A DNA stretch of 64,000 nt from Malacoraja senta (GCA_038087875.1 CM075987.1:18106001-18170000); one strand, 5' to 3'. Shown: positions 9,611-64,000, counted from the first letter of the stretch. Notes: a model not told the origin generated them from the letters alone. A program made the numbers and translations.

Positions 9611-10007
9611 TGCGTGCAACAGTTTTCGGATGGATAAAGCGTTAATAAACATTTTATTAGATCAGGACTGTGTTTAATTGCAAAATTGGCACTCATTTCG
9701 TGATTTCCGCCCAGTTGCAAGATTGCGCCATTGACGTCTTTTATGGTTAGCGGCATGCTGGCGCTGAGTGCGTCATTTCCGGTTCATGGCAAGAAGCGGG
9801 ACATCAAGATGGCGCCGAGTGCAGGGACCGTTGAATAATTCCAGAGAGCTGACTGCTCTGTCTATGGCGAATGTGTTTGTTGGACGTTATTTAAAGCATG
9901 TTTTTGCTTCAGCAGCAGCCTCTACAGCAGGCTTTAAACGTTTGAATCGTTCGGTTCACACACTGTATGTTCACCACGTTCTGAAGTTAGTTGCCATTTT
10001 AGTATTG

Positions 10008-10380
10008 GGTGTGAGTGTGTGTCTGTGTCTGTGTGTGTGTCTGTGTGTGTGAGTGAGTCTGTGTTTAGTGTGTGAGTCTGCGTCTGTGTGCGTGAGTAAG
10101 TCTGTGTGTGTGAGTGAGTGTGTGTGTGTGTGTGTGAGTCTGTGTGTGTGTGTGAGTGAATGACTCTGTGTGTGTGAGTGAGTCTGTGTGTGTGTGAGTC
10201 TGTGTGTGTGAGTGAGTCTGTGTGTGTGTGAGTCTGTGTGTGTGTGTGTGTGAGAGAGTGAGTCTGTGTGTGTGTGACTGTGAGTGAGTCTGGGTGTGTG
10301 TGTGAGTATGTGTGTGTGTGTGGCTGTGTGAGTGAGTCTGTGTGTGTGTGAGAGTGTGGGTCTGAGAGTGTGTGTGTGTG
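10008..10380. repeat. (GT)n-rich compound microsatellite
   Basis: gtgt/gagt/tctgtg runs; longer allele at ~49521-50032. Confidence 0.97.
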
Positions 10381-10526
10381 TATAGGGGGTTGCACATAAG
10401 GTCACCGGGTCAAAGGGCTTGACGCACGGAGCCGCTCAATCCATCTGGAGGACATCACAGCTTCCGGTATATGTTGTTATGTTAATATACGAAACGCGTG
10501 CTTTCCTACCTGTAAAAAAAGCTAAA

Positions 10527-10684
10527 ATGGTGAATTTTTGCGCTGTAAATAATTGTGGAAGTCGGGGTAACCGTGAGAGACATCTATCCTACTTCAGAAT
10601 TCCAAAAGTGAAGAGAAATGAAGGTAAAGGGAAGTGAGAACTGAAGGGACAACAACAGCTAAAGTGCTTGGCGAACATTGGCCA
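10527..10684 (+). pseudogene. THAP-domain N-terminal fragment, probably transposon-derived
   Basis: ATG 10527: MVNFCAVNNCGSRGNRERHLSYFRIPKV (C-x4-C...F..P); in-frame stop at 10635-10637; truncated by the GT array. Confidence 0.7.
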
Positions 10685-10773
10685 TGTGAGTCTGTGTGTG
10701 TGTTTGTGTCTGTGTGTGTGTTTGTGTCTGTGTGTGTGAGCATGTGTGAGTCTGTGTGTGTGTGTGTCTGAGG

Positions 10774-10857
<84 letters not shown>

Positions 10858-11245
10858 CTCTCTGTGTGTGTGTGAGTCTGTGTGTGCGTGAGTCTGTGTG
10901 TGAGTGTGTATGAGTCTGTCTGAGGGTCTGTGTGTTTGTGAGTCTGTGTGTGTACGTGTGTGTGTGTGAGTCTGTGTCTGTGTGTGTGTCTGTGTGTGTC
11001 TGAGAGTCTGTGTGTGTGTGTGTGTGTGTGTCTGAGAGTCTGTGTGTCTGTGTGTGTCTGTGTGTGTCTGTGTGTGTGTGTGTGTGTGTGAGTCTGTGTG
11101 TGTGTGAGTCTGTGTGTGTGTGCGAGTCTGTGTGAGTCTGTGTGTGTGTGTCTGTGTGTGTGTGTGTGTGTCTGAGTGTGTGTCTGTGAGTGTGTGTGTG
11201 AGACTATTTTTTAGTGTCTGTGTGTGGTGGAGGGTGTGTGTGTGA
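10685..11245. repeat. (GT)n-rich compound microsatellite
   Basis: Direct observation; counterpart ~50336-50843. Confidence 0.97.
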
Positions 11246-11399
11246 TCAACAAATAACAAATAGTACAAATAATATAGTCTTTCGTAGTTCAGAGATTATT
11301 TGTTGTTTAATAGCCTGATGGCTCTCAGGAAGCTGTTCCTCAATGTGGATGTTACAGTTTTCAGTTTACAAATGTTGGACGTGACTCCAGAAGTCGGGC

Positions 11400-11560
11400 A
11401 TAAGTCAGTCAGTCCACAAGCCGTGATTCAGTCTGTCAGTCCAGAGGCCATGAGTGAGTCAGTCAGTAGGTCCAGAGGCCATGAGTGAGTGAGTCAGTCA
11501 GTCCAGAGACCATGAGTTAGTCCCAAGGCACTGAGTGAGTCCAGAGGCCATGAGTAGGTC
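11400..11560. repeat. Short imperfect tandem repeat (agtccagaggccatgagtgagtc-like)
   Basis: 4-5 degenerate copies; one unit fewer in copy 2. Confidence 0.8.
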
Positions 11561-11948
11561 GCTCATCGGCCCCCCCCCCTCACTGACATCCACCACCTCA
11601 AGACGCTGCCCTCCGCCTGGCTATAGGATGCTCCCCGTCCTGAAGCCGCCTCCATCCCCCGCTGCAGGACACCCCCCTCCCTCATCAGCCCACGAGAGCC
11701 CCCGCCTGAAGCCGTCCCCCTCCCTCGGCTGCAGGACGTTTGCCACCCCCCACCCCACCCCGACAGCCCCTGCCTCAAAAATATGTCTTGCACAAATTCT
11801 TCAGTGAGTCCAGAAGATTGAGAATTACAACAAAACTATGGAATTCTTTAATTTGCCACAACCAAGAAATGGAAGGATGCACCTTGATGATGACAATCCA
11901 GTTTTACTGCAGGAATTGCAATACGATAGAACTGAACAACACCAATTT

Positions 11949-13384
11949 TTAAAATTTATTTTTATTGGAAGCAATTGTACAAGATAAATCGCTCGGCAAC
12001 TTCCATTATACAATTATTGTACAGCTTCATTTTTTTTTTATTCATAACGAACACACAATAGACAGAAAACAAAAAACACCAATTAAAGAAACAAAAACAA
12101 AAAAAACAACAACAAAAAAGAGTGGGGGGGCAGCCAGAATATCAATCAGAGTGCAAGATCAAAGTTCGCTCAGATTAAAGACATAGCACAGCAGCAAAAT
12201 AAACAGATCAGACAATTATGCCTCTTCAAGCAAAATCAAAAATGGTTTCCACACCTTCAAAAAATAATTTTGTAAATTCCCTTTGTTAAAACGAATCTGT
12301 TCCATCTTAGCAATAGAAAGCATTCCGTTGAGCCACCTCTTAAAACACGGGGAGAGTGGGGACTTCCAATTCAGTAATATTATTTTTTTAGCTGCAACCA
12401 TACCTGCTCTAAGAATCTGCTTCTGGTGGGAAGGAAGGGCCCTTGTATTGTCAGAGCAACCAAAAATAGCCAGATTACAATCAGGCGGAATATTTATTCG
12501 ACATTGTTTGGAAAGACAGTTAAATATGTCATTCCAGAAATTACTTAATACTGGACAGTGCCAAAATAAATGTGATAGTGATCCTTCTGCAGTACCACAT
12601 CTGTCACACATGGAGGAAACCTATTCAAAAATCTTGTTAAGTTTGGTTTTAGAATAATGTAGTCTGTGCAAGACTTTAAATTGAATTAATCTGTATCTAG
12701 AACTAATAGAGCAACTCTGTATACCGGACAAACCTTCCTCCCACAGTTCATTTGACACAGGAGTGCCCAATTCTGCAGCCCAGGCCTCCCTGAGATGACC
12801 AGCTTCAACTGGTGTCGTAAAGGCAGTGACAAAGCGGGAGATCAAGTGTTTAGAGTCAGGCTGTGAGAGAAGTAGATCATAAAGAATGTGACTTTTTGGT
12901 TTGACTATGAATTCTGGTATATGCTCCCGTACAAAATGCCTGACTTGAAAGTAGCGATAGAAGTGTTGTTGAGGAAGGCGATATTTAGTTTGGAGCTGAA
13001 AAAATGAGGCAAATTTATTATCTATGTAGAGATCATCAATACAACAGAATGAAGTTATGGCCAACTAATTTGTAGGGAACCTGTGCTCCGAAAAAGAGCA
13101 ACACTGGGAGAGAGGTCTCTGAAACAAACATGGATTCAATTGTTTGCCGGAGTGGGGAAACATCAGACATCATCAGGAAAGCCCCACTGCCAGAAAGTGA
13201 GAGCCCTCGCATTTGCAGCCCAGTAGTAATGCTTCAGTACCGGAAGGCCGAGGCCACCCCTGTCCACATCTTTCTGTAGGTGGGCTTTAGCAATACGAGG
13301 GGATTTGTCTGCCCAGACAAATGAGAGTATAACCGAATCCAGTTGTTTGAAAAAAGACAAAGGTAAGTAGACAGGAAGGTTTTG
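11949..13384 (-). mobile_element. 5'-truncated L1/Tx1-like LINE 3' fragment flanked by a 127-bp direct duplication
   Basis: C-terminal CCHC region 'CDRCGTAEGSLSHLFWHC', 'QFKVLHRLHY'; A-rich tail and AATAAA near 11946-11966; flanks 11822-11948 and 13385-13511 match at 123/127. Confidence 0.9.
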
Positions 13385-13727
13385 GAATTACAACAAAACT
13401 ATGGAATTCTTTAATTTGCCACAACCAGGAAATGGAAGGATGCACCTTGATGATGACAATCCAGTTTTGCTGCAGGTATTGCAATACGATAGAACTGAAC
13501 AACAGCAATTTGTTGAGGAGAATGGGCCTCTACTGAATGCTGAGCAGAGAGCAGTGTATGCACTCAATTTAACAGAAGGTGAAGACATTCCCCTTCAGCA
13601 GACCCAATTCCCCATTCAATCAAGTTTTGCTATGACGATCTATAAAGCACAAGGACAAACAATGCAGAAGGTGTTGATCTACCTCGACAAACCAGTATTT
13701 CAGCATGGAAAACTATATGTGTCTCTT

Positions 13728-14629: not shown

Positions 14630-16430
14630 CTGAGTGAACTGCCAGCGTACCAGGCGTGAGTGACTGCACTGCCAGCCCACGAGCCGTGAGTAAGTGAACT
14701 GCCAGCCCACCAGCTGTCATAGAATCATAGAATCATAGAAAGTAGGTGCGAGAGCAGACCACCAGGTCCATCGAGCCCGCACCGCCATTCGCTCATGGCT
14801 GAACACCAAACAAACACCCCTACCCACAAACAGTAGACACAAGACACAGAACACAAGACACTACCCTCCCCTTTATACCGCTATCACCCCTCTCCACCCC
14901 AAGAACCGCGTGTTCTCCTGGGGGAGGCAAAAAACCGGATAAAAACCCAGGTCCAATTCGGGAAAAAAATCCGGGAAATTCCTCTCCGACCCCAATCCAG
15001 GCGATCGACACTTGTCCAGGAGATCACTCAGGTCTTACTATACTAACCCTACCTAGGTCCATATCCCTGCCCTCTCCCCGTAGCCCCTTATCCCCTTGGC
15101 AGCTAAAAAAACATCTATTTTAGACTTAAATATATTTAATGTTTCTGCTTCCACTGCTCCCTGGGGCAGTGAATTCCATAAATTAACCACCCTCTGGGTG
15201 AAGAAGTTCTTCCTCATCTCAGTTTTAAAAGAGCCCCCCCTTATTCTGCAACTATGTCCCCTAGTTCTAGTTTCCCCGATCATTGGGAACATCCTTGGTG
15301 CATCCACCCGATCAAGGCCCCTCACGATCTTATATGTTTCAATGAGATCGCCTCTCATTCTTCTAAACTCCAAAGAGTAGAGTTCCAGCCTACTTAACCT
15401 TTCCTCATATGTCAATCCCCTCATTGCAGGAATTAATCTTGTAAACCTTCGCTGCACTGCCTCCAGGGCCAGTACATCCTTTCTTAAGTATGGACCCCAG
15501 AACTGTACACAGTATTCCAAATGTGGTCTCACTAATGCTGTGTACAGCTGCAGCAAGACCTCCGTGTTTTTATACTCAATCCCCCTAGCAATAAAGGCCA
15601 AAACTCCATTGGCCTTCCTGATAGCTTGCTGCACCTGCATACTAACTTTTAGTGATTCATGTACTACTACCACTAGATCCCTTTGCGTTGCATTACAGCG
15701 CAGCTCCTCCTCATTTAGAAAATAACTTGCCCTATCATTTTTTTTCCCAAAGTGAATGACTTCACATTTATTAGTATTAAATTTCATCTGCCAAGTTGTT
15801 GCCCACTCACCTAGCTTATCTATATCCTTTTGCAGACTCTTCCTATCCTCCTCATCCCCTACTTTTCTTCCCATTTTTGTATCGTCCGCAAATTTTGATA
15901 TATTACACTTGGTTCCCTCCTCCAAATCATTTATATAAATTGTGAACAACTGGGGTCCCAGCACCGACCCTTGCGGAACCCCGCTAGTTACCGGTTGCCA
16001 TCCCGAATATGAACCATTTATCCCCACTCTCTGCTTCCTATTTGTTAGCCAATCCTCTACCCATGCTAATATATTACCCCCAATCCCATAATTTTTTATT
16101 TTTAGCAATAGTCTCTTATGTGGCACCTTGTCAAAAGCCTTTTGGAAGTCCAAGTATACCACATCCACCGGTTCCCCTTTATCCACCCGGGTTGTTACTT
16201 CCTCAAAGAATTCGAGCAGATTCGTTAAACAGGACTTCCCGCCCACCAGCCGTGAGTGAACTGCCAGCCCACCAGCCATGAGTGACTGCACTGCCAGCCT
16301 ACGAGCCGTAAGTGAACTGCCAGCCCAGAAGCTGTAAGTGACTGAACTGCCAGCCCACCAGCCGTGAGTGACTGCACTGCCAGCCCACGAGCCATGAGTG
16401 ACTGCACTGCCAGCCCACCAGCCGTGAGTG
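14630..16430. repeat. ~26-30-bp minisatellite (gccagcccaccagccgtgagtgactgcact) split by a CR1 insertion
   Basis: Units at 14630-14716 and 16240-16430. Confidence 0.85.
14717..16238 (-). mobile_element. 5'-truncated CR1 LINE with an open RT frame (copy 1 only)
   Basis: '[13 protein letters not shown]', 'GVPQGSVLGP', 'KFADDTK', stop at 15053; (TTCTATGA)n tail at 14718-14740. Confidence 0.95.
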
Positions 16431-16994
16431 ACACTGGGACACTGCCTGATCTCATTAACTGAGCTGCCAGCCCAAGAATTCATTCGGCCCACAATGTCCA
16501 TACTAGCCATCTGGAAACCAGTTCCTTCGGCCCACAACACACATACTAGCGCAACAGAAAGCCCCCCCCCCCCCCCCACTGGCCTGCAATATTGGAATTG
16601 GTGGAGAGGTGGAATATTGCGTTGGGTGCCCAGCCCTCCCGTGTGATGCTGGGACCCAACGGGTCCCACATAGTCTAGTACCTAGTATGTTCTGTTGTGC
16701 TGAAGCAAAGCAAGAATTTCATTGTCCTATCAGGGACACATGACAATAAACTCTCTTGAATCTTAAGGTTAGACTGTGCACATCACTCCCCCCCCCCCTC
16801 CCCTCCCCCTCCCCGCCGTCCCCAACCTCCACCTTGAGTGGGATGCCTGTGCTTCTCTTGGGTCTGTACAATAAACAGGTGGCTGGAGGATCCTCAGCTT
16901 GTGAATCTTTGGTAGAAATAGGTGTAGCCCAGATCACGCGGTGGTTTATCCGAGGTACAGACTTTCTGGTCAATGCAGATCACACACCTGACGG

Positions 16995-17677
16995 GGAGAG
17001 AGGAAGAATGAGAAGGTAGAGAGGGAACTGTGTGTTGGGGTGAGAGGGAGAGGGGGATGAGGAGGTAGATAGGGAATGGTGTGATATAAAGAGGGAGAGA
17101 GGAGGAGAGAGACATGGGGTGGAGTGTGAGATGAGAGTGATGGAGGAGTGGGAGAGAGAGAAGGGGGAGATTGGGAAGAGGGAGCGGGTGGAGCGGGAAG
17201 TGGAGGAGTGTTGGGAGAGAGGGAAGGTGTAGGGAGAGAGAATGGTAGTCGTGTGTGGAGACAGAGGTGGAGGTGAGCGATTGGGAGTGAGAATGGCGTA
17301 TGAGTGTGGGAAGAGATGGGGAGGTGTGTGGGGAGTCAGAGGGGACGAGAGTGAGGAGAGTGGGAATGGAGTGAGGAGAGGGGAGGTGTATTGTGGAGTC
17401 CGAGGACCCGAGGAGTGGGACGAGAGAGGATGTGGGGTAGGAGGCGGCATGAGGAGCGTGTGGATAGCAGGGGGAGGGGTGTGGTGAGTGAGAGGGGGTG
17501 GAGTGAGGGAAACGGGACGGAGGAGTGTGGGTAGAGCGAGGGGATGAGTGTGAGAAGGCTGGTGGGAGTGAGGTGAGCAAGAGGGTCAGGTGTGGGTAGA
17601 GAGAGAGGGGAGGTGTGAGGGTGGTGGGGTGGAGAATGGGGAAGGGGGAGTTGGGGGAGTTGGGGGAGAGTGGAGAG
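16995..17677. repeat. G/A-rich low-complexity tract; continues at 22988-24090 beyond the Harbinger insertion
   Basis: Polypurine composition on the + strand. Confidence 0.9.
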
Positions 17678-17969
17678 TTAAGACTCTGTCTCACGGTGTT
17701 GCGGTCATTGGCGGTGAAGCGCGGCGTCGCTGGAAGAGGGGACCGCACGTCAACCGCGAGAGCGCCGAGCCTATGCCGCGGGAGCGCCGCACGGATGCTG
17801 CGCGGGGGCCGAGTGATCTCAGTACGGCCGGTCCCACGAGCTTGCGGTAAGTTAAAAAAAATTTAGCCTTACCGGAAGCTGTTGCTGTGCGTATGCCGGG
17901 TGACCACCGCACGGCCTGTCCAACGAGCATGCGATCGCGGACTTACCGGAAGCGGGGGGGTGCGCGGAC

Positions 17970-18059
17970 GTCCATTTTGGGAGGAGTCTATAAGCTCGAG
18001 CCTGACGCCATTTTGAGCGTATTTGTGAAGCTCGAGCCTGACGCCATTTTTTTGCAGGT
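17970..18059 (+). promoter_or_regulatory. Putative transposase promoter / non-coding first exon
   Basis: 23-bp direct repeat aagctcgagcctgacgccatttt (17992-18014, 18028-18050) with YY1-like GCCATTTT; donor CAG|GTAATC at 18057/18058; acceptor ttttgcAG at 18621-18622. Confidence 0.55.
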
Positions 18060-18655
18060 AATCAAAATCGCTGGCTATCAAAAAGATATATAATTTTGAA
18101 AATCATGCTGGGAAAAGGTCTTTATTATTGAGAGTCTGAAACATTCTAACCACTATTAATATAATTGATTTATAGCCTGATTTTCTATACCAAGAGGTTT
18201 CTTAGAAACACAACTGTCCCATTATAGTATAATACCTGCACTGATTTAGACTACAGGTGGTTCTGCTATAATATGAGAGTTTTGTTCCTAAAACCTTGTG
18301 TTATAGAAATTTGCTTTATAAAAGACAATTTTATAAAGGGGGTTAGGGCCTAGGAATTGTAGACCAGCAATAACAAAGTTAGTAATAATAATAGGATGAT
18401 TGTAAATAACAATATATCGCTTGTCGACTTCAGTGGTCACTCGTGGTTACAGTAGCAGCTGTGTTCGTAGAGAGACAATGAACATAGAACAGTATAACAC
18501 AGGAACAGGCCCTTTGGTCCACAAAGTCCATGCCAACTCTCCCTACGTAAACTGAGCCTACAGTGAAAGTGAAAATAACTTGTTCAGAATATTTGCACTT
18601 ATTCTTTATCTTAATTTTGCAGCAAACTTTATTTGGACCTGTAAACTACTGCACA

Positions 18656-19960
18656 ATGGAAGAGATTGAGATTGCATTGCTGCTACACCAACAGACACTT
18701 CTCTTAGCAGCAGCCCTCATGGTTGCAGGTCAGCCGTGCAGCAGTTCAACAAAGAAGGTTATGAAGAAGAAGAAGAAGCCCAGGAAGAGGTCTGTGTGGA
18801 CGAGGTCTTTGTTCCGGATGAGACTTACTTTGGGCCAGTATGAGACCATGATGATGGATCTGCAGCGGGTAGATGATGCTGCCTTTAGAAATTTCACCAG
18901 GATCCCCCCTGACCTGTTTCAGGAGCTCAAGACACGAGTCGGACCTCTACTGCAGAAAAGGGACACCGTCATGCGGAAGTCACTGGAACCAGGACTGCGC
19001 CTAGCCATCACCCTCCGCTACCTTGCATCAGGGGATTCCTACAAGAGCCTCTCGTATAACTTCCGTGTGGCTCACAACACCATCAGCAGTGTAGTCCGAG
19101 AGACTTGTGACGCCATCATCAAAACATATGATGAGCTTATTGACTGCCCAACTACACCAGACGGGTGGAGGAGTGTGGCGCACGGCTTTCAAAGCAGTTG
19201 GAACTTCCTGCACACATGTGGGGCTGTTGATGGGAAGCATGTGGCCATCCGGTGTCCACCCGGGGGAGGTTCTGTGTACTTCAACTACAAGAAGTTCCAT
19301 TCCATCGTGCTGTTAGCTGTGGTAGATGCAAACTACAACTTCATGTTTGTGAATGTGGGCACACCTGGCAGTGCCGCAGATGGAGGGATCTGGAGAGAGA
19401 CCTCCCTTGGGCAAGCATTGGAAGAAGGGAGAGCAGGCCTTCCTGATCCAGAACCTCTGCCGGGAGAAGACAACCCTGACATCACCTACGCACTGGTTGG
19501 TGATGATGCCTTCGCACTCAGGCCATGGATGATGAAGCCATACCCTCACAGGGGGATGTCAAGGGAGCAAAGGATCTTCAATTACAGGCTGTCCAGGGCT
19601 AGGAGGGTAGTGGAAAATTCTTTTGGTATCCTTGCTAGCAGATTCAGATGCCTGCTGACAACAATGGAGCAGGAGCCCGAGAATGTGCAGGCCATTGTCT
19701 ACGCGGCATGTGTCCTCCATAACCTGATCCGCACCAGAGGTGCATCTGCAGCCTTGGTGGAGGGTGACACGATGGACAAACAGACTGGTGAAGTCACACC
19801 AGGTTCATGGAGAGCTGCAAGACAGGCATCACTGATGGTGGCACTAGGGTCATTGCAAGGAAACACCAGCAACAAAAGAGCAAAGGAGCTGAGGAACCAT
19901 CTCTGTGCTTACTATAACTCAGAGCGAGGCAGTGTACCCTGGCAGGACAATATGTTTTGA
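18656..19960 (+). CDS. Harbinger (HARBI1-like DDE_Tnp_4) transposase, 434 aa from ATG 18656
   Basis: Uninterrupted ORF; 'LAITLRYLASGDSY' HTH region, catalytic 'GAVDGKH', 'LVGDDAF', 'RVVENSFGILASRFRCL', 'ACVLHN'; AATAAA at 20240. Confidence 0.95.
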   Translation: MEEIEIALLLHQQTLLLAAALMVAGQPCSSSTKKVMKKKKKPRKRSVWTRSLFRMRLTLGQYETMMMDLQRVDDAAFRNFTRIPPDLFQELKTRVGPLLQKRDTVMRKSLEPGLRLAITLRYLASGDSYKSLSYNFRVAHNTISSVVRETCDAIIKTYDELIDCPTTPDGWRSVAHGFQSSWNFLHTCGAVDGKHVAIRCPPGGGSVYFNYKKFHSIVLLAVVDANYNFMFVNVGTPGSAADGGIWRETSLGQALEEGRAGLPDPEPLPGEDNPDITYALVGDDAFALRPWMMKPYPHRGMSREQRIFNYRLSRARRVVENSFGILASRFRCLLTTMEQEPENVQAIVYAACVLHNLIRTRGASAALVEGDTMDKQTGEVTPGSWRAARQASLMVALGSLQGNTSNKRAKELRNHLCAYYNSERGSVPWQDNMF

Positions 19961-20568
19961 GGATCAAAAGCAAACAGGGGATGTCAGGGTTGTCTTCTCA
20001 CGGCAGAGGTACCCGATCATGAAGGCCCCAGATCTAACAAAAGTGCGATCCATGTATGTTGATGGATGGTTTTACATTGTGAAATTATTAATTCTGTGTT
20101 AATAGTAATACCTACATCACTTATTTTAAAATTGCCTGATCTTTAAAGCGTTTAAATGCCATTGTTTGATTTTCATGGCTTATAATGACAAATTTTGCAA
20201 TTCAATGCTATTCTATGCCTGTTTGTGTTTTATTTCTCTAATAAATCAATGCTTTTGTATGTGAGATGCATTCCATCATTAGAGGTTGTTTCCATATGAG
20301 AGATCTACGCCATGATTAACAGACACTTTTTTTCACCATACAATATTAAATTTAAACTGTTTATTTAGTGGAAACAATTAACATATTGAAAAACAAGAAA
20401 TTCTTTTTAAATATGCAACACAATTCCACAGAACATTGTTCATTAGTGCAAGCAAACAAATAACGTAGTGAGAAACAACAGTGAATTAAACGTTAATGTG
20501 CAACACACAAGCACACACCATAGTGAATTTTGGGGGCAATCTCACTCCTTACGGCCCATGTCCACATG

Positions 20569-22437
20569 TCAATTATCAATATAAAATTCTGAGAGTTCTG
20601 TGCCGGAGTTTGTGCTTTCTTCGGGGCCATCAAATTGCACATGAAAATCGCTTTCCCCTAGCCTATCCATGCCACGTGATGAATGATGTGGTGGTGGGGT
20701 GTGTCCACTGACATAGTGGGGGGGGCCTGCCATCCACGGGTATGCCATAGAACGGGATTCCATCCTTGCCTGTGGGCAAAACACATAAGCGTATCAATAT
20801 GTATCGGTGCCAAACAAATCTTATAAAACAAATCACAACCTTTCACAAGCTGTGTGTTAGAGACAATCTTGAGTCAGGCTGAAGACTCACAAATGTTTCA
20901 CAGTGTGCCTGGGGAGGATATTGTGGTGGCATCATCATGGTTTGTTGCAGTGGCACTAATGGCATGGGCCTCATCGGACTCTGCAACACAAAGAAAATCG
21001 TAGTAAATGATTCATAGACAGCATTAAATTAAAACTTTTATAAATTCAATAAACTTTGATTAAAATATTTTACTGGCAGAGCAAGTCTGTGTGCCCTTGC
21101 CAAGGCCAATCCCTCTATACTGTAGCGTTGCCAATTTTCCTCAGGGATCAAAAACATCTCCTCCTTCAGTAACATTGCGTAAGCATGGACGATCCTTTCC
21201 TGCGACGTCCTTGGCTGTGACAAAACGTTTATCATGCCCGACGTTGTCTTTGCCTGTTGCATGATCTGCAACAAGAGAGTACAATCATGATAATTATATT
21301 GTGGGATGCGATGGAGAAACGTGGACGTAGGGCGGAGTGAAAGAGATTTGATGATGGGTAATCCAAAAGCACTTACATCCGTGAACATCTCCCGTTGAAG
21401 ACCTTGAACAGCCACCTCGCTATCTGACGCAGTTGTGCAGGCCCGCTTCCGTTTTGCATGCTGCTGCAGTTCGACAGCAGTGCATGACCCGGATGGTCCA
21501 TGTGAGGGTCCCTCTAGCGGATCAGGCTCGCCCTCACTCGAGTCCGCGCACGTTGATACACCCACAGTACACTTGAAGAAAGTGAATGCATATCATAAAT
21601 GTGCAAGGTCATCAGGACGTAGCAAGAAAAGTGAACAAGTTATCATTGTTAAAATATTTTTGACTGACTTGCCGACAAATATTAATTGTCACATAATTTT
21701 CGTAATTATTCACCTTCCTGCAACTTTCCTTCCTCTGCACTCTTACAATGTGGTCCCGCACGAACCCCCATTTGTCATATATCCACTGGTCTCTGTCAGT
21801 CAGTGTCCTACTGCCAGAGCCAGACTTGCCAAGACTTTGAGAAATTTTCCCGAACCGTGTCCTCTGACTCTTTAGCCATTGACACAGTTGGTCATCTGTG
21901 AAAACATAGAATAAATGAAGATAAGTGTTGAGCAACTTATAATATGAATTGGGACTTCAATTACAAACACAGAAATGTAGATAAACTACAAATTATGTAC
22001 TTACAAGAGCAGTCAGGGAACTCCTTCACCTTTTCTCCAATTCTGACGTTGCGGAGACCCCTGTTCCTAAAATCACGGTGGGTCTTGTCATGCAGCTCAT
22101 GGTGGGCCTGATACCATTCCACCAGGTCCCCCTCTTGTTCCCTTGAAAAATTATATGGCTTTGAGCCAGACCTGTTCCACACCCATGCAGGGACATAAGC
22201 TGGAGCAGGAGATGGGCCAGCAGATGGGGCAGCAGATGGGGAAACAGATGAGGCAGCAGATGGAGAAGCAGATGGGGCAGCAGATGTGGAAGCAGATGGG
22301 GCAGGAGATGGGACAGGTAATGAAGCAGGGGCAGGGGCAGGAGCAGTAGCTGGACCCTCCAGTACCTGAATGTTTTCCATTATTACTTTTTTAACTTTGT
22401 CCTGCATCGATCTTCTTACACTCCTTGTTCTCCTCAT
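20569..22437 (-). CDS. Six-exon MADF/Myb-SANT-like DNA-binding protein of the Harbinger element (430 aa). Exons 22437-22005, 21895-21714, 21571-21377, 21265-21074, 20980-20891, 20769-20569
   Basis: All five introns GT..AG with consistent phase (1,0,0,0,0); spliced 1293 nt open; MADF-like 'FSREQEGDLVEWYQAHHELHDKTHRDFRN...QWLKSQRTRFGK...WGFVRDHI'; minus-strand AATAAA at 20360-20365. Confidence 0.85.
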
Positions 22438-22987
22438 GTTTCTAATAAACTGTCAAACACTCCGTTTGAAAAACGCGGTAAAATGCTACAATGTTGAAGT
22501 CTCAAATCTCGCGTGGTTTGGACGTGAACAGCTAAAAGAGGTGGGCCGACTGCGAAAGGACGTCGTGCGGCGTCGGGTGATGACGACATCGCGCAACGAG
22601 ACGCGCTACGCGATGACGTCATTTAGGATCGCTGGGCTGTTGCGGCGGTAGTGCTGATCGTGGCGCTGTGGCGGCGCCCGTGCCGCACATGTGCCGCACT
22701 GGCGGAGGCTGTGGCGGTGAAGGTTCAACTCGCGGCGCTCTTGCCACACTGGCAGCGGCTGTGGCGGTGACCGTGCCGCACTCGTGCCTCACTGGCGGCG
22801 GCTGTGCGGTAAGATATTATTTTTCGACATTGCTGGCTTTTTGTGAGCACTGTGCGGTGTTGGGACCAATGCCGCACGGCCTCGGCGGTGTGCGTTTCAC
22901 CGAACCCGCGGTCTCTGGCGGTCCACGAGCGGTAGATACTTCCTGTATCACTGCCAATGACCGCAGACTCGTGAGACAGGCCTTTTA

Positions 22988-24090
22988 GTGGAGTAATGGG
23001 GAGGGAGGGGAAGTGTGTGGATGAATGGTGAAGAGTTGGGGGAGAGAGGAGAGTGAGGGGAGAGGGGGAATGGTGGACGGGAGAGGGAGCTAAATGTAGG
23101 AATAAAAGAAGGGGAGGATTGTGTGAGCGAGTGGTGGAGTTGTGTGGGGAGACTGAAGGCGGAGTGAGGGGGAGAGGTGGAGGGGAAGAGGGGACAACGT
23201 GGCAGGGAGAGAGAGTGGGCAATTATGGAGCGATGTTGTGAGGACATCAGGAGGGGATGAGAACGATACGATGTGGAGAGTTTGTAATGAAGTGAGGAGC
23301 GACGGAGTGTGGAGAAAGAGTGAGGGGAGTGGGGAGAAAGATAAAGAGAGAGCGCGAGAGAGAGAGAGAAAGAGAGAGAGTGAGGAATGCGAAGTGAGAG
23401 GTCCGGAGAAATGTCGACAAGGTCGGAGGAGTGGCGGGAGAGAGTGAGCGAGGAGTGGGTAGAGAGAGGGAAGGCAGGGCGAGCGAGTGGGCTGGAGGTG
23501 TGTGTGGATAGGATGGGGGTGGTATGAGGAGAGAGGGGGAGAGAGGGAAGGTGGGGAGAGAGAGAGGAGGCCGGAGGTGTGTGGGGATAGGGTGGTGGTG
23601 GTATGAGGAGAGAGGGGGAGAGAGGGAAGGTGGGGAGAGAGAGAGAGGGCCGGAGGTGTGTGGGGATAGGGTGGTATGAGGAGAGAGAGGGAGAGAGGGG
23701 CATTGTGTGGAGAGCGATGGGGAGGAGTGTGGAGAGAGAGTGCGGGATATTGGGAAAGGGGATGGGGTGGGAAGAGTGGAAAGGGAGGTTTGCGGATAGA
23801 GTGCGGGAGGAAGGGATGAGGAGAGAAAGAGGGCCGGAGGAGGGTGGGGAGAGAGAGTTGCTGTGGTTAGAGAGATGCGGGGGAATGGGCAGAGTGGGGT
23901 AGGTGTGGAGGAGTGGGGTGAGAGGGGGAGGAGGATGGCAGAGAGGGATTAGGAGGGGAGAGAGGTAGAGGATTGGAGAGAGATATGATTTGGGAGATTG
24001 AGAGGCGAGTGCGAGGGAATAGGGCGGTGTGCGGGACGAAGGGGAGAGTGGGGATGAGGAAAGGGAGGCAGCTGGAGAGGGGGGGGGAGA
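22988..24090. repeat. G/A-rich low-complexity tract
   Basis: Polypurine composition, local internal duplications at ~23520-23700. Confidence 0.9.
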
Positions 24091-28170: not shown

Positions 28171-30225
28171 CTGATGATGATGAAGATGATGAAATTCTTT
28201 ATTGTCATTATAACATGTAAACATGTACAACAAAATTAAAAATGCCAACCAGTCAGTGCACCAGTCACACATTATCTAAAAGCTAACGATACGTAAAAGA
28301 GAAATATCTAAAATAAACAACTAGAATAAATAACTTGAAAAAAACCCAAGCATAAACACACAACCATACATTCTTCTGTCGATTTCACAATCCCTTTGGT
28401 GTGTAGCGCACCTGCGCTCATTTGGTGGCTACATTAAGTGTAGTTATTGCTGTGGGATAAAAACTGTTTTTGAGTCTGTTTGTCCTTGTCCTCATTGATC
28501 TGTACCGTCTGCCTGACGGCAACAGTTCAAACAGGGAGTGTCCGGGGTGGTAAATGTCCTTTATAATGTTCTGGGATTTCTTGAGACAGTGGGAACTGTG
28601 TAGGTCCTCCAAGGTGAGGAGAGGGCAGCCGACAATCTTCTGGGCGTTGTCAATAGCCCTCTGGAGCGCTTTCCTCTTAGCCGCTGTGCAGCTGGTGTAC
28701 CACACGCATACACAGTATGTTAAGATGCTCTCTATGGAGCACCGATAAAAGGATAGCAGCAGTCTCTGGATGATGTTGTTCTTCCTGAGCACCCTCAGGA
28801 AGTACAGTCTCTGCTGGACCTTTTTCAGCAGCGGAGAGGTGTTCACGCTCCATGTCAGGTCCTCCTCAATGTGGATTCCCAGGAAGCGGAAATCCGCCAC
28901 CCCCTCCACACAGTCCCCTCTGATGATTAGTGGTGTAATGTCCGTTTTCTTCTTCCTGTTGTCTATTATGAGCTCCTTGGTCTTTGAGGTGTTGAGGAGC
29001 AGGTTATTCTCTCCACACCACACTGTCAGCTGCTCCACCTCATCCCTGTAGGCGTACTCATCCCCCCCAGAGATGAGCCCCACCACCGTGGTGTCATCCA
29101 CGAATTTGACAATGGTGTTACTGTGGTGGGCGGGGGTGCAGTCATATGCGTAGATGGTGTAAAGCAGGGGGCTCAGCACGCAGCCCTGTGGAGAGCCGGT
29201 ACTGAGGCTGAGGGCCGTGGATGTGTGATGGCCCACTCTGACTCTCTGGCTGCGACCCGACAGGAAGCTATTTATCCACATGCAGGTGGAGTGTGGAAGT
29301 CCCAGGTCCCCCAGTTTGTCCACCAGTTTGTGGGGAAGGATGGTGTTAAAAGCAGAGCTGTAGTCCACAAAGAGCATCCGCACGTAGCTCCCCCGCTGTT
29401 CCAGGTGGGACAGTGCAGCATGGAGAGCTGTGGCTACAGCATCCTCTGTGGATCTGTTCGCTCTATACGCAAACTGGTGGGGGTCAAAGCTTCGGGGCAG
29501 GATTGATGTAATGTGTCCCCGGACCAGTTTTTCAAAGCACTTCATCACCACTGGTGTGAGTGCGACTGGCCGGTAGTCGTTGAGGCTGGAAATGTGGGGT
29601 TTTTTTATGGCAAGGGGACTATGGTGGAGGACTTCAGACAGGGTGGGACAGTGAAGTGGGCCAGGGACTGGTTGAAAATCCTCGTAAAGACTCCAGCCAG
29701 CTGGTCTGCGCAGTCCTTCAGCACGCGTCCAGAGATGCCGTCGGGTCCAGCAGCCTTCCTCGGATTGATGGCCCGCAGCGTGCGCCTCACCTCATGCTCC
29801 TCTATTTTGAGGGATAAGCTGCTGTGGACCATGTGATGTGATATGGCTGTCTCTGGTGGCTCCACTTCAAAGCGAGCAAAGAAGAGGTTCAGCTCCTCTG
29901 CCAACGAGGCGTCACCTTCAGCAGCTCCAAGGTTCGTCTTGTAGTTGGTGAGATACTGGATCCCCTGCCACACCTGCCTGCTGTTGTTACTGTCCAGGTG
30001 GTCCTCTATCCTCCTCCTGTAGTCTGATTTGGCCTCTCTGATGCCTCTCTTCAGGTTAGCTCGGGCCGTGCTGTATAAAGCCCTATCGCCAGACCTAAAA
30101 GCGGTGTTCCTCTCTTTTAACAGCCGCTGGACCTCCCGGATCATCCAGGGCTTCTGGTTGGGGTAGACCCGGATGCGTTTGTCCACTGTGACAGTGTCCA
30201 TGCAGTTTTTAATGTAACATAGTAC
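28171..30225 (-). mobile_element. Rex1/Babar LINE, 5'-truncated, one frameshift near 29600
   Basis: ORFs 29605-30267 and 28418-29551: 'YPNQKPW', 'KAAGPDGI', '[11 protein letters not shown]', '[12 protein letters not shown]', 'LPSGRRYRS'; (CAT)n-like tail. Confidence 0.93.
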
Positions 30226-38075: not shown

Positions 38076-38079
38076 GCTA

Positions 38080-59804: not shown

Positions 59805-61894
59805 CCCCCCCCCCCCCACTGGCCTGCAATATTGGAATTGGTGAAGAGGTGGAATATTGCGTTGGGTGCCCAGCCCTCCCGTGTGATGCTGGGACCCAAC
59901 GGGTCCCACATAGTCTAGTACCTAGTATGTTCTGTTGTGCTGAAGCAAAGCAAGAATTTCATTGTCCTATCAGGGACACATGACAATAAACTCTCTTGAA
60001 TCTTGAGGTTAGACATGCACATCACCCCCCCCCCCCCCCATCCCCTCCCCCTCCCCGCCGTCCCCAACCTCCACCTTGAGTGGGATGCCTGTGCTTCTCT
60101 TGGGTCTGTACAATAAACAGGTGGCTGGAGGATCCTCAGCTTGTGAATCTTTGGTAGAAATAGGTGTAGCCCAGATCACGCGGTGGTTTATCCGAGGTAC
60201 AGACTTTCTGGTCAATGCAGATCACACACCTGACGGGGAGAGAGGAAGAATGAGAAGGTAGAGAGGGAACTGTGTGTTGGGGTGAGAGGGAGAGGGGGAT
60301 GAGGAGGTAGATAGGGAATGGTGTGATATAAAGAGGGAGAGAGGAGGAGAGAGACATGGGGTGGAGTGTGAGATGAGAGTGATGGAGGAGTGGGAGAGAG
60401 AGAAGGGGAGACTGGGAAGAGGGAGAGGGTGGAGCGGGAAGTGGATTAGTGTGGGGAGAGAGGGAAGGTGTAGGGAGAGAGAATGGTAGTCGTGTGTGGA
60501 GAGAGAGGTGGAGGTGAGCGATTGGGAGTGAGAATGGCGTATGAGTGTGGGAAGAGATGGGGAGGTGTGTGGGGAGTCAGAGGGGACGAGAGTGAGGAGA
60601 GTGGGAATGGAGTGAGGAGAGGGGAGGTGTATTGTGGAGTCCGAGGACCCGAGGAGTGGGACGAGAGAGGATGTGGGGTAGGAGGCGGCATGAGGAGCGT
60701 GTGGATAGCAGGGGGAGGGGTGTGGTGAGTGAGAGGGGGTGGAGTGAGGGAAACGGGATGGAGGAGTGTGGGTAGAGTGAGGGGATGAGTGTGAGAAGGC
60801 TGGTGGGAGTGAGGTGAGCAAGAGGGTCAGGTGTGGGTAGAGAGAGGGGAGGTGTGAGGGTGGTGGGGTGAAGAATGGGGAAGGGGGAGTTGGGGGAGTT
60901 GGGGGAGAGTGGAGAGTTAAGACTCTGTCTCACGGTGTTGCGGTCATTGGCGGTGAAGCGCGGCGTCGCTGGAAGAGGGGACCGCACGTCAACCGCGAGA
61001 GCGCCGAGCCTATGCCGCGGGAGCGCCGCACGGATGCTGCGCGGGGGCCGAGTGATCTCAGTACGGCCGGTCCCACGAGCTTGCGGTAAGTTAAAAAAAA
61101 TTTAGCCTTACCGGAAGCTGTTGCTGTGCGTATGCCGGGTGACCACCGCACGGCCTGTCCAACGAGCATGCGATCGCGGACTTACCGGAAGCGGGGGGGT
61201 GCGCGGACGTCCATTTTGGGAGGAGTCTATAAGCTCGAGCCTGACGCCATTTTGAGCGTATTTGTGAAGCTCGAGCCTGACGCCATTTTTTTGCAGGTAA
61301 TCAAAATCGCTGGCTATCAAAAAGATATATAATTTTGAAAATCATGCTGGGAAAAGGTCTTTATTATTGAGAGTCTGAAACATTCTAACCACTATTAATA
61401 TAATTGATTTATAGCCTGATTTTCTATACCAAGAGGTTTCTTAGAAACACAACTGTCCCATTATAGTATAATACCTGCACTGATTTAGACTACAGGTGGT
61501 TCTGCTATAATATGAGAGTTTTGTTCCTAAAACCTTGTGTTATAGAAATTTGCTTTATAAAAGACAATTTTATAAAGGGGGTTAGGGCCTAGGAATTGTA
61601 GACCAGCAATAACAAAGTTAGTAATAATAATAGGATGATTGTAAATAACAATATATCGCTTGTCGACTTCAGTGGTCACTCGTGGTTACAGTAGCAGCTG
61701 TGTTCGTAGAGAGACAATGAACATAGAACAGTATAACACAGGAACAGGCCCTTTGGTCCACAAAGTCCATGCCAACTCTCCCTACGTAAACTGAGCCTAC
61801 AGTGAAAGTGAAAATAACTTGTTCAGAATATTTGCACTTATTCTTTATCTTAATTTTGCAGCAAACTTTATTTGGACCTGTAAACTACTGCACA

Positions 61895-63199
61895 ATGGAA
61901 GAGATTGAGATTGCATTGCTGCTACACCAACAGACACTTCTCTTAGCAGCAGCCCTCATGGTTGCAGGTCAGCCGTGCAGCAGTTCAACAAAGAAGGTTA
62001 TGAAGAAGAAGAAGAAGCCCAGGAAGAGGTCTGTGTGGACAAGGTCTTTGTTCCGGATGAGACTTACTTTGGGCCAGTATGAGACCATGATGATGGATCT
62101 GCAGCGGGTAGATGATGCTGCCTTTAGAAATTTCACCAGGATCCCCCCTGACCTGTTTCAGGAGCTCAAGACACGAGTCGGACCTCTACTGCAGAAAAGG
62201 GACACCGTCATGCGGAAGTCACTGGAACCAGGACTGCGCCTAGCCATCACCCTCCGCTACCTTGCATCAGGGGATTCCTACAAGAGCCTCTCGTATAACT
62301 TCCGTGTGGCTCACAACACCATCAGCAGTGTAGTCCGAGAGACTTGTGACGCCATCATCAAAACATATGATGAGCTTATTGACTGCCCAACTACACCAGA
62401 CGGGTGGAGGAGTGTGGCGCACGGCTTTCAAAGCAGTTGGAACTTCCTGCACACATGTGGGGCTGTTGATGGGAAGCATGTGGCCATCCGGTGTCCACCC
62501 GGGGGAGGTTCTGTGTACTTCAACTACAAGAAGTTCCATTCCATCGTGCTGTTAGCTGTGGTAGATGCAAACTACAACTTCATGTTTGTGAATGTGGGCA
62601 CACCTGGCAGTGCCGCAGATGGAGGGATCTGGAGAGAGACCTCCCTTGGGCAAGCATTGGAAGAAGGGAGAGCAGGCCTTCCTGATCCAGAACCTCTGCC
62701 GGGAGAAGACAACCCTGACATCACCTACGCACTGGTTGGTGATGATGCCTTCGCACTCAGGCCATGGATGATGAAGCCATACCCTCACAGGGGGATGTCA
62801 AGGGAGCAAAGGATCTTCAATTACAGGCTGTCCAGGGCTAGGAGGGTAGTGGAAAATTCTTTTGGTATCCTTGCTAGCAGATTCAGATGCCTGCTGACAA
62901 CAATGGAGCAGGAGCCCGAGAATGTGCAGGCCATTGTCTACGCGGCATGTGTCCTCCATAACCTGATCCGCACCAGAGGTGCATCTGCAGCCTTGGTGGA
63001 GGGTGACACGATGGACAAACAGACTGGTGAAGTCACACCAGGTTCATGGAGAGCTGCAAGACAGGCATCACTGATGGTGGCACTAGGGTCATTGCAAGGA
63101 AACACCAGCAACAAAAGAGCAAAGGAGCTGAGGAACCATCTCTGTGCTTACTATAACTCAGAGCGAGGCAGTGTACCCTGGCAGGACAATATGTTTTGA
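61895..63199 (+). CDS. Harbinger transposase, copy 2
   Basis: ORF-track translation identical to copy 1. Confidence 0.95.
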   Translation: MEEIEIALLLHQQTLLLAAALMVAGQPCSSSTKKVMKKKKKPRKRSVWTRSLFRMRLTLGQYETMMMDLQRVDDAAFRNFTRIPPDLFQELKTRVGPLLQKRDTVMRKSLEPGLRLAITLRYLASGDSYKSLSYNFRVAHNTISSVVRETCDAIIKTYDELIDCPTTPDGWRSVAHGFQSSWNFLHTCGAVDGKHVAIRCPPGGGSVYFNYKKFHSIVLLAVVDANYNFMFVNVGTPGSAADGGIWRETSLGQALEEGRAGLPDPEPLPGEDNPDITYALVGDDAFALRPWMMKPYPHRGMSREQRIFNYRLSRARRVVENSFGILASRFRCLLTTMEQEPENVQAIVYAACVLHNLIRTRGASAALVEGDTMDKQTGEVTPGSWRAARQASLMVALGSLQGNTSNKRAKELRNHLCAYYNSERGSVPWQDNMF

Positions 63200-63807
63200 G
63201 GATCAAAAGCAAACAGGGGATGTCAGGGTTGTCTTCTCACGGCAGAGGTACCCGATCATGAAGGCCCCAGATCTAACAAAAGTGCGATCCATGTATGTTG
63301 ATGGATGGTTTTACATTGTGAAATTATTAATTCTGTGTTAATAGTAATACCTACATCACTTATTTTAAAATTGCCTGATCTTTAAAGCGTTTAAATGCCA
63401 TTGTTTGATTTTCATGGCTTATAATGACAAATTTTGCAATTCAATGCTATTCTATGCCTGTTTGTGTTTTATTTCTCTAATAAATCAATGCTTTTGTATG
63501 TGAGATGCATTCCATCATTAGAGGTTGTTTCCATATGAGAGATCTACGCCATGATTAACAGACACTTTTTTTCACAATACAATATTAAATTTAAACTGTT
63601 TATTTAGTGGAAACAATTAACATATTGAAAAACAAGAAATTCTTTTTAAATATGCAACACAATTCCACAGAACATTGTTCATTAGTGCAAGCAAACAAAT
63701 AACGTAGTGAGAAACAACAGTGAATTAAACGTTAATGTGCAACACTCAAGCAGACACAACAGTGAATTTTGGGGGCAATCTCACTCCTTACGGCCCATGT
63801 CCACATG

Positions 63808-64000
63808 TCAATTATCAATATAAAAGTCTGAGAGTTCTGTGCCGGAGTTTGTGCTTTCTTCGGGACCCTCAAATTGCACATGGAAATCGCTTTCCCCTAG
63901 CCTATCCATGCCACGTGATGAATGATGTGGCGGTGGGGTGTGTCCACTGACATAGTGGGGGGGGCCTGCCATCCACGGGTATGCCATAGAACGGGATTCC
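63808..64000 (-). CDS. Last exon (partial) of the MADF gene, copy 2
   Basis: Matches 20569-20761 with about five substitutions and no new stop. Confidence 0.75.
   Translation of the reverse strand, partial: ESRSMAYPWMAGPPHYVSGHTPPPHHSSRGMDRLGESDFHVQFEGPEESTNSGTELSDFYIDN

What the first reader, a model, noticed from the sequence alone, without database searches (positions are those of the whole stretch)
17678..22987. Structurally complete two-gene Harbinger transposon, possibly still mobilisable
Seen: TTA duplication on both sides, imperfect 37-bp TIRs, an uninterrupted 434-aa transposase with D-D-E motifs, and a convergent partner gene. The element splits one G/A-rich tract. Known: PIF/Harbinger elements use TTA/TAA targets and need both a transposase and a Myb/SANT-like protein. 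Inferred: both genes are intact while nearly every other element here is broken, so it may be young and autonomous, or under selection. The mismatched outermost TIR bases could limit excision.
Basis: partly seen in the sequence, partly recalled or inferred. Interest (0 to 1): 0.8.

Follow-up and report, generated by a model that had tools for sequence, protein, structure and literature searches.

The report
Intact two-gene Harbinger transposon, skate genome
This is a real, structurally complete cut-and-paste Harbinger transposon in a skate genome, one of about ninety gene-carrying copies that also gave rise to thousands of miniature copies, so it is an ordinary member of a known kind and not an especially young one.

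Summary
Window 17681-22984 is a 5,304-bp PIF/Harbinger element. It has TTA on both sides and imperfect terminal inverted repeats. It carries an open 434-aa DDE_Tnp_4 transposase gene with its catalytic D-D-E residues conserved. It also carries a convergent six-exon gene for a 430-aa MADF/Myb-like protein.

The host is a skate: its RAG1 is 97% identical to the Amblyraja radiata protein.

The element is mobile DNA, not a domesticated gene. The assembly holds about 85-90 gene-carrying copies at different TWA sites, and 3,685 exact copies of the right terminus. Of 28 such termini sampled, 27 belong to 0.5-0.7-kb miniature elements (MITEs).

This copy is not especially young. Its nearest independent relatives are 96% identical, and its own branch is about 1.2%. 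Another subfamily has tip branches of 0.3-0.5%. The 99% copy 43 kb downstream comes from a segmental duplication. Both genes are open in 5 of 23 copies compared.

The outer TIR mismatch is a family-wide one-base offset. Only one G>A change at base 3 is private to this copy.

Expression and mobility remain untested.

One side result: at a single repeat-borne TTA target, 16 of 37 insertions carry TAA on exactly one side. This fits carry-over of the donor site's 3-nt overhangs.

The parts
17678..17680 (.). left target-site duplication, TTA
17681..17717 (+). left terminal inverted repeat. Base 3 is A here but G in the other left ends examined.
17718..18058 (+). left subterminal region. It holds RCCGCAC motifs at 17742, 17786 and 17906, and two 36-nt direct repeats at 17972-18043. 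It is a candidate binding and promoter region (inferred).
18079..18535 (+). variable 5' stretch. Other subfamilies begin to align only at element positions 600, 766 or 856. Positions 399-599 are seen only in L001-L004.
18656..19960 (+). transposase gene: one exon, 434 aa, DDE_Tnp_4, with D192, D283 and E320
19436..19487 (+). arm 1, inside the transposase coding sequence, of a 52-nt inverted repeat; arm 2 lies at 19976-20027
19976..20027 (+). arm 2 of the 52-nt inverted repeat, just past the transposase stop codon
22005..22437 (-). partner gene exon 1: start codon, a Pro/Ser/Ala 12-nt tandem repeat, and the first part of the MADF domain
21714..21895 (-). partner gene exon 2, the rest of the MADF domain
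21377..21571 (-). partner gene exon 3
21074..21265 (-). partner gene exon 4
20891..20980 (-). partner gene exon 5
20569..20769 (-). partner gene exon 6 with the stop codon. It holds a C8 run whose length varies between copies.
22438..22947 (+). right subterminal region, with 32-49-nt direct repeats (22651-22806) and RCCGCAC motifs
22948..22984 (+). right terminal inverted repeat. Its last 26 nt occur exactly 3,685 times in the genome.
22985..22987 (.). right target-site duplication, TTA
60920..64000 (+). start of the 99% identical second copy. It runs off the window end and was made by duplication of the whole segment, not by transposition.

Best explanation
Window 17681-22984 is one copy of a multi-copy PIF/Harbinger DNA transposon family in a skate genome. 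It has the autonomous-type layout and full coding capacity.

Shown here: the two TIRs and the TTA duplication; an open DDE_Tnp_4 transposase gene; an open six-exon MADF/Myb-like partner gene on the opposite strand, ending tail to tail with the transposase gene; many copies at different SWS-TWA-SWS sites; and thousands of 0.5-0.7-kb MITEs built from the left ~180 nt and the right ~350-420 nt of the element.

Inferred from what is established for zebrafish Harbinger3_DR and rice Ping/Pong: the MADF protein binds repeated subterminal motifs (here probably RCCGCAC), pairs with the transposase and brings it to the ends. The transposase then cuts at the flanking TWA and pastes the element into a new TWA.

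This copy inserted into a G/A-rich repeat about 1.2% divergence ago and was later copied passively with a roughly 43-kb segment. It can probably still encode both proteins. Whether it moves itself is open, because it has a private G>A at base 3 of the left end and 8 private amino-acid changes in the transposase.
For: - Ends, target duplication and transposase domain.
- D-D-E residues invariant.
- Partner gene: six exons, all introns GT-AG. It is 61% identical over 359 aa, in the same order, to Amblyraja radiata LOC116982106 X2. That protein matches Pfam MADF_DNA_bdg above the curated cut-off (24.5 against 22 bits). The window's own exon 1 gives MADF as its top hit in the same register, but below cut-off (E 0.035).
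- Copy numbers: at least 28 long copies. A transposase 31-mer has 89 exact genome hits and a partner-gene-region 25-mer has 84. The right-end 26-mer has 3,685 hits against 0 for the reversed control.
- Of 28 right-end sites sampled, 27 are MITEs of 529-676 bp.
- DNA-run contigs join window 17858-17929 directly to 22543-22616.
- Different flanks at each copy, with TWA beside the ends.
- A 9-bp SWS-TWA-SWS target preference in 41 sites.
- The RCCGCAC motif occurs 10 or more times in the subterminal 420/460 nt and 0-1 times in the inner 4.4 kb.
- The mechanism of the superfamily is taken from passages read in PMC9710019, PMC9179366, PMC2836001 and PMC4561436.
Against: - No direct evidence of expression or movement of this copy.
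- Its closest independent relatives are only 96% identical.
- Base 3 of the left end is A here, while all 45 other left ends examined have G there.
- Three of the 8 private amino-acid changes (L57, S181, T277) fall on positions where most relatives agree on another residue.
- The partner gene is broken in the two nearest relatives, L003 and L004. Chance survival of open frames at 1.2% divergence is therefore plausible.
- The MADF assignment for the window's own protein rests on a 61%-identical homologue. The spliced protein could not be handed to the family search.
- Only 30 of roughly 89 gene-carrying copies were examined.
Confidence: 0.82

Rival explanations
1. The copy is a dead relic whose two reading frames have stayed open by chance. 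It neither moves nor supplies working proteins.
For: - Its own branch is 1.2%. That is roughly 15 changes per 1.3-kb frame, so a sizeable share of copies of this age would keep open frames without selection.
- Private changes in its transposase are 8 non-synonymous to 4 synonymous, close to neutral.
- It has a private G>A at base 3 of the left end.
- No copy more than 96% identical was found at another site among the candidates scored.
Against: - None of the 70 columns invariant across 10 relatives is changed, including D192, D283 and E320.
- All splice sites of the partner gene are kept.
- The family as a whole was active more recently: L021 and L022 are 99.4% identical at different sites. 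Working proteins from other copies could therefore still move this one.
Confidence: 0.35
2. The pair is a domesticated host gene pair, like HARBI1 with NAIF1, kept by selection at a fixed locus.
For: Both frames are open, and dN/dS between copies is below 1 (median 0.52).
Against: - TIRs and TSD are present.
- There are about 85-90 gene-carrying copies at different sites.
- dN/dS of about 0.5 is typical of a mix of selection on active lineages and neutral decay. It is well above the values of 0.04-0.25 quoted for domesticated PIF genes in PMC9710019.
- The partner gene is broken in most copies.
Confidence: 0.03
3. The element, or its second copy in the window, is an assembly artefact such as a collapsed or falsely duplicated haplotype.
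For: The two copies and at least 20 kb of their flanks are 99.3-99.6% identical in tandem. That level could be haplotype divergence.
Against: Contigs from run X1 cross both junctions of the element, at 17300-17708 and 22967-23318. That run may come from the sample that was assembled, so the support is not independent. The element's structure is repeated at many other loci. Only the duplication is in doubt, not the element.
Confidence: 0.1

Closest known systems
Harbinger3_DR of zebrafish (reconstructed vertebrate Harbinger; Sinzelle et al. 2008, as described in PMC9710019 and PMC9179366)
   Same: It has a two-gene layout with a DDE transposase and a Myb/SANT/MADF-like DNA-binding protein. [quoted passage not shown]
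   Different: No sequence of Harbinger3_DR was at hand, so identity was not measured. Here the partner gene has six exons, the genes converge tail to tail, and natural copies with both frames open exist, so no reconstruction is needed. The host is a cartilaginous fish.
Ping/Pong with the MITE mPing of rice (PIF/Pong branch)
   Same: An autonomous two-gene element has a large population of Tourist-like MITEs sharing its ends. It uses TTA/TAA targets with a 9-bp preference. TSDs are cut in a staggered way, so the excised element carries 3-nt overhangs (passages read in PMC4561436 and PMC11254759).
   Different: It is a distant plant lineage. In yeast, an mPing donor with TCA flanks gave 45 of 46 insertions in TTA/TAA (PMC4561436), so donor bases were not seen to carry over there. 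Here one-sided TAA at a TTA target is common.
HARBI1 and NAIF1/MSANTD genes (domesticated Harbinger genes of jawed vertebrates; PMC9392472)
   Same: The protein families are the same: a DDE_Tnp_4 nuclease and a Myb/SANT-like partner. Many database relatives of the window's transposase are labelled 'putative nuclease HARBI1'.
   Different: Those are single-copy host genes without TIRs or TSDs. This element is multi-copy and has both.
Uncharacterised skate proteins LOC144593005 (Rhinoraja longicauda) and LOC116982106 (Amblyraja radiata)
   Same: These are the closest named relatives. The first is 74% identical to the transposase over 72% of its length. The second is 61% identical to the partner protein over 359 aa with the same exon junctions.
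   Different: They are far more diverged than host genes: RAG1 is 97% identical to A. radiata. They therefore belong to other Harbinger lineages or to old copies, not to the same family at the same locus.

Membership tests
PIF/Harbinger superfamily | DDE transposase of the DDE_Tnp_4 / Plant_tran type with an intact catalytic triad | tested here: met
   DDE_Tnp_4 E 1.3e-34, above the cut-off; Plant_tran E 2.7e-07. D192, D283 and E320 are invariant in 10 sequences.
PIF/Harbinger superfamily | second gene for a Myb/SANT/MADF-like DNA-binding protein | tested here: met
   The spliced 430-aa model aligns with P0121. P0121 passes Pfam MADF_DNA_bdg (24.5 bits, cut-off 22) at the residues that match model residues ~105-166. 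The window's exon 1 alone gives MADF at E 0.035, below the cut-off. The support is therefore indirect for the window's own protein.
PIF/Harbinger superfamily | 3-bp target-site duplication, TWA | tested here: met
   This copy has TTA on both sides. TWA lies beside the ends in nearly all copies. The two sides are identical in 11 of 16 long copies and 17 of 27 MITEs. The rest differ mostly at the middle base (see the side finding).
PIF/Harbinger superfamily | terminal inverted repeats of roughly 25-50 bp | tested here: met
   28 of 37 positions match without gaps; 32-nt arms are 84% complementary. The termini are conserved across copies.
PIF/Harbinger superfamily | target preference extending beyond the TSD (9 bp in plants, 15 bp in vertebrates) | tested here: met
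   In 41 sites, position -3 is G/C in 33, -2 is A/T in 30, -1 is G/C in 34 and +1 is G/C in 35. One repeat-borne site, GCTGAG-TTA-CTCCAGC, was hit many times in both orientations.
PIF/Harbinger superfamily | Tourist-like MITEs sharing the ends | tested here: met
   27 of 28 sampled right-end sites are elements of 529-676 bp with both ends. Joints in DNA-run contigs show the same structure.
PIF/Harbinger superfamily | both proteins needed for transposition; precise excision | not testable with these tools
   This needs an excision assay.
Autonomous, currently active element | transcripts of both genes; insertion polymorphism or near-identical copies at new sites | tested here: inconclusive
   No copy more than 96% identical to this one lies at another site among the candidates scored. 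The youngest pairs in the family are 99.3-99.4% identical. No population data were available.
Domesticated Harbinger-derived gene (HARBI1/NAIF1-like) | single copy, no TIR or TSD, conserved synteny, strong purifying selection | tested here: not met
   It is multi-copy. TIRs and TSD are present. dN/dS is about 0.5. Synteny could not be tested because no related genome was held.

The most novel reading that the evidence does not exclude
In this family the 'target-site duplication' is often not a pure duplication. The excised element would carry the donor site's TWA as 3-nt single-stranded overhangs. These would be ligated into the new site instead of the gap being refilled, as piggyBac does with TTAA. 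When the donor's and the target's middle bases differ, a heteroduplex forms, and replication leaves one flank with the donor's base.

The evidence comes from one host-repeat site. When empty it reads TTA 49,770 times and TAA 576 times. When occupied, TAA is found at 35 of 199 junctions. In the 37 loci where both junctions were caught, 21 are TTA/TTA, 16 have exactly one TAA, and none has two.

If this holds, it is a natural genome-wide record of donor-overhang carry-over in a vertebrate Harbinger, and each discordant TSD records the donor's flank.
Probability: 0.4. Interest if true: 0.55.

Novelty: new member of a known kind. Interest (0 to 1): 0.38.

Why it matters
Harbinger elements in cartilaginous fishes are barely described. 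A 2022 survey (PMC9179366, passages read) found none in the elephant shark and said other cartilaginous fishes needed study. Two shark genome papers list the superfamily only in their repeat annotation (PMC8455134, PMC12498223, one passage each). My search joining 'Harbinger' with five skate genus names found no paper on the subject.

This skate family has natural copies with both genes open, a subfamily with tip branches of only 0.3-0.5%, and thousands of MITEs. It could therefore serve as a natural, unreconstructed vertebrate Harbinger system for transposition assays.

The discordant middle base of the TSDs, if explained as proposed, gives a cheap genomic read-out of how the excised element's ends are joined. 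None of this changes what is known about the superfamily's basic biology.

Tried and rejected
- **RNA evidence.** No RNA holder was listed among the sequencing runs. All four runs laid were contigs that look like DNA. Expression and the exon model could therefore not be checked with reads.
- **Empty-site allele.** No joint spanning an empty site for this insertion was among the joints listed (16 more joints were not shown). This says nothing either way.
- **Pfam on single exons of the partner gene.** There were no hits at E up to 0.01 for the 158-aa exon-1 ORF. Exons 2, 3, 4 and 6 gave none at E up to 10.
- **Word-based homologue search with the partner's exon 1.** In the 'longer' length class it found only one protein. 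The rarity of relatives is therefore not established.
- **Complex prediction of transposase with partner.** Not attempted.
- **The 52-nt inverted repeat as a selected RNA hairpin.** 42-49 of 52 pairs hold across 23 copies. All 15 variable pairs change on one side only, with no compensatory change. I rejected it as evidence of a conserved structure.
- **Alternative element boundaries.** I tried ends shifted by one base, a 2-bp TA duplication, and insertion without duplication to explain the discordant TSDs. None fits: the outer T and A are always duplicated, and the empty site is a single TTA.
- **Target polymorphism as the cause of the TAA flanks.** Rejected. TAA makes up 1.1% of empty sites, and no TAA/TAA pair occurs among 37.
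- **Repbase and Dfam.** Neither could be searched, so I cannot say whether this family is already catalogued.
- **Earlier notes of this scan.** None exist for this genome.
Full report
**What is there.** The window is G000:C11:18106001-18170000 of a 1.94-Gb assembly. Between the two TTA triplets at 17678-17680 and 22985-22987 lies a 5,304-bp element.

Its ends are inverted repeats. They match at 28 of 37 positions without gaps. The repeat finder reports 32-nt arms that are 84% complementary. As a control I compared all 111,598 pairs of TTA sites lying 3-8 kb apart in the window. Only three other pairs reach 28/37, and all three fall in two inverted copies of a LINE fragment.

Both flanks belong to one G/A-rich repeat (families D2-D6).

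**The two genes.** The + strand carries an open 434-aa frame at 18656-19960. It matches Pfam DDE_Tnp_4 at E 1.3e-34. In an alignment with nine relatives, D192, D283 and E320 are among 70 invariant columns.

The minus strand carries a six-exon gene:
- exon 1, 22437-22005
- exon 2, 21895-21714
- exon 3, 21571-21377
- exon 4, 21265-21074
- exon 5, 20980-20891
- exon 6, 20769-20569

All five introns are GT-AG, and the joined frame is 430 aa. The model is 61% identical over 359 aa to a 350-aa thorny-skate protein, P0121. The alignment runs in the same order across junctions 1/2 to 4/5.

P0121 passes Pfam MADF_DNA_bdg (24.5 bits, cut-off 22) at the residues that correspond to the exon 1/2 boundary of the model. 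The window's exon 1 alone gives the same family in the same register, but below the cut-off (E 0.035). The two genes end tail to tail.

**Host.** The genome's RAG1 core is 97% identical to that of Amblyraja radiata and 86-88% identical to those of rays and sharks. The host is therefore a skate. The rest of the window is made of LINE fragments.

**Family.** A genome search returned 141 matching pieces from 28 scored candidates out of 5,793. They include a 99% copy 43.2 kb downstream, two full-length copies at 96% (on C1 and C2), and many at 88-95%.

The 99% copy has the same flanks, and window 1-20761 is repeated at 39513-64000 at 99.3-99.6%. It therefore arose by duplication of the segment, or by an assembly duplication, and not by transposition. 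The other copies have different flanks, with TWA next to conserved termini: left AGGCTCTGTCT(C/T)AC, right GTGAGACAGGCCTT.

Exact-word counts for the whole genome are:
- 89 for a transposase 31-mer
- 84 for a 25-mer in the partner gene region
- 3,685 for the last 26 nt of the right end, against 0 for the reversed control

I fetched 28 of the right-end sites. Of these, 27 are elements of 529-676 bp with both ends. In the remaining one the left end lay outside the piece fetched. The first eight of these MITEs have a median pairwise identity of 94%, and seven of them are closest to the ends of the L019-type subfamily, not to this copy.

Contigs of two DNA-like runs join window 17858-17929 directly to 22543-22616, which is the same MITE structure. 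Summed contig depth in those runs is far higher over the terminal bins than over the interior. The tool warns that this figure is not a copy number.

From 41 sites the target preference is SWS-TWA-SWS. This copy's site, GAG-TTA-GTG, fits it.

**Age and integrity.** I aligned a 4-kb core of 23 copies. The tree is comb-like.
- This copy and its duplicate share a stem of 0.84%, plus tips of 0.39% and 0.26%. That is 1.2% from the node shared with L003-L006.
- The L018-L022 clade has tips of 0.3-0.5%. L021 and L022 are 99.42% identical at different loci.
- If one assumes 1e-9 changes per site per year, these figures mean roughly 12 and 3 million years. That rate is my assumption and has not been measured for this species.

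An open transposase frame of 431-443 aa is present in 20 of 30 loci, or 21 if a 472-aa frame in L025 is counted. Several of the 30 loci are partial. dN/dS between the 20 copies has a median of 0.52 over 188 pairs. It is 0.63 for changes seen in one copy only and 0.40 for shared changes.

I projected the partner gene model on all loci. It is open in L001, L002 (+12 nt in the exon-1 repeat) and L007 (+60 nt). It is open to a stop three codons early in L021 and L022. It is broken in L003 and L004.

The other subfamily has lost the exon-5 donor used here, but it has a GT 18 nt upstream that keeps the frame. Exon 6 holds a run of 7 to 20 C that shifts the frame between copies. This may be real or may be a homopolymer error of the assembly. 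Both genes are thus open in 5 of the 23 copies.

This copy's transposase has 12 private changes, 8 of them amino-acid changes. None falls in the invariant columns. Three fall at positions where most relatives agree.

At the left end, base 3 is A here. It is G in all 45 other left ends examined, 18 and 27. The apparent mismatch of the outermost TIR bases is otherwise a one-base offset shared by the whole family.

**Likely mechanism.** From passages read in PMC9710019, PMC9179366, PMC2836001 and PMC4561436:
- Both proteins are needed for transposition.
- The Myb-like protein of Harbinger3_DR binds a 9-bp subterminal motif and brings the transposase into the nucleus.
- Excision is precise, because the TSDs are cut in a staggered way.

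Here the motif RCCGCAC occurs ten or more times within the subterminal 420/460 nt and 0-1 times in the inner 4.4 kb. A related GACCGCA lies in both TIRs. I propose these as the MADF protein's binding sites; this is an inference.

**Side finding.** The two TSD copies often differ at the middle base.
- They are the same in 11 of 16 long copies.
- They are the same in 17 of 27 MITEs.
- Eight of the ten discordant MITE pairs are TAA against TTA.

Several MITEs sit in the same site of an abundant host repeat. That site, when empty, reads TTA 49,770 times and TAA 576 times. When occupied, the flank reads TAA at:
- 10 of 41 junctions
- 11 of 49 junctions
- 10 of 57 junctions
- 4 of 52 junctions

I paired junctions lying within 700 bp of each other, reading the pairs off those lists. 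Of 37 loci, 21 are TTA/TTA, 16 have one TAA and none has two. Two pairs of loci with equal spacing may be duplicates of each other.

The excised mPing element is reported to carry the donor's 3-nt overhangs (PMC11254759, PMC4561436). If such overhangs are ligated at the new site, a donor with TAA landing in TTA would give exactly this pattern.

Three points count against this reading:
- Independent changes at each junction, at about 18%, would also give no double TAA in 37 loci with probability about 0.17.
- Three TGA/TGA pairs (L010, the MITE inside L015, and L041) are not expected without repair.
- In yeast, a donor with TCA flanks did not pass on its C.

Ectopic gene conversion between MITEs is an untested alternative. 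My search for this pattern in print and passages of PMC13668399 showed no report of it. That covers only the held library.

**Verdict.** This is a real, complete Harbinger element and a new member of a known kind. It is neither the youngest lineage in its genome nor domesticated. Its activity is untested.

Noticed in passing
window 1-20761 and 39513-64000: A large tandem duplication. The blocks are 99.3-99.6% identical, with a 93.8% stretch at 10006-13724. The offset is 39.5-43.2 kb. It carries the whole element and its flanks. It could be a true segmental duplication or a haplotype placed twice by the assembler.
   Followed up: partly
genome-wide; for example L035, L038, L047 and the sites listed: The two copies of the target-site duplication often differ at the middle base, TAA against TTA. 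At one host-repeat site that is TTA in 98.9% of empty copies, 35 of 199 occupied junctions read TAA. Of 37 insertions with both junctions caught, 16 have exactly one TAA.
   Followed up: yes
window 19436-19487 and 19976-20027: A 52-nt piece of the transposase coding sequence is repeated in inverted orientation just after the stop codon. It is present in all 23 copies compared, with 42-49 of 52 pairs holding. No compensatory change is seen, so nothing shows that the pairing is selected.
   Followed up: yes
window 20700-20715 (exon 6 of the partner gene) and the same place in L003-L022: A run of C varies from 7 to 20 between copies and decides whether the last exon is in frame. It may be a mutational hot spot or a homopolymer error of the assembly.
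   Followed up: partly
window 22174-22353 (exon 1 of the partner gene): Ten copies of a 12-nt tandem repeat encode a Pro/Ser/Ala-rich stretch. Its length differs between copies, from -24 to +60 nt among loci where exon 1 was recovered whole.
   Followed up: partly
L014, L016-L022, L027, L028 (5' ends): The younger subfamily carries one to four tandem units of about 270-290 bp near its left end. Each unit contains an exact or near-exact copy of the last 29 nt of the right TIR, as if MITE-like ends were reiterated inside the element.
   Followed up: no
host repeat around L035, L038, L047; genome-wide: A 21-mer of an abundant interspersed repeat, containing GCTGAG-TTA-CTCCAGC, occurs 49,770 times. 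It is a repeated landing site for this family in both orientations.
   Followed up: partly
run X3 (organism B), laid on window 17779-22800: A second organism from another study holds short contigs 96-98% identical to the transposase gene and to the ends. The family is therefore shared with at least one other species.
   Followed up: no
window 17972-18050 and 22610-22622: The word CCATTTT recurs three times at 36-nt spacing upstream of the transposase gene. A TGACGTCA palindrome lies about 180 nt upstream of the partner gene's start codon. These are possible promoter elements, read from the sequence only.
   Followed up: no
window 70-2222, 15053-16681, 28418-29791, 34080-38092, 58849-59844: Broken LINE copies with reverse transcriptase and endonuclease domains. 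Two have an ORF1 of the GDSL-lipase/esterase type. No host gene was recognised in the window.
   Followed up: partly
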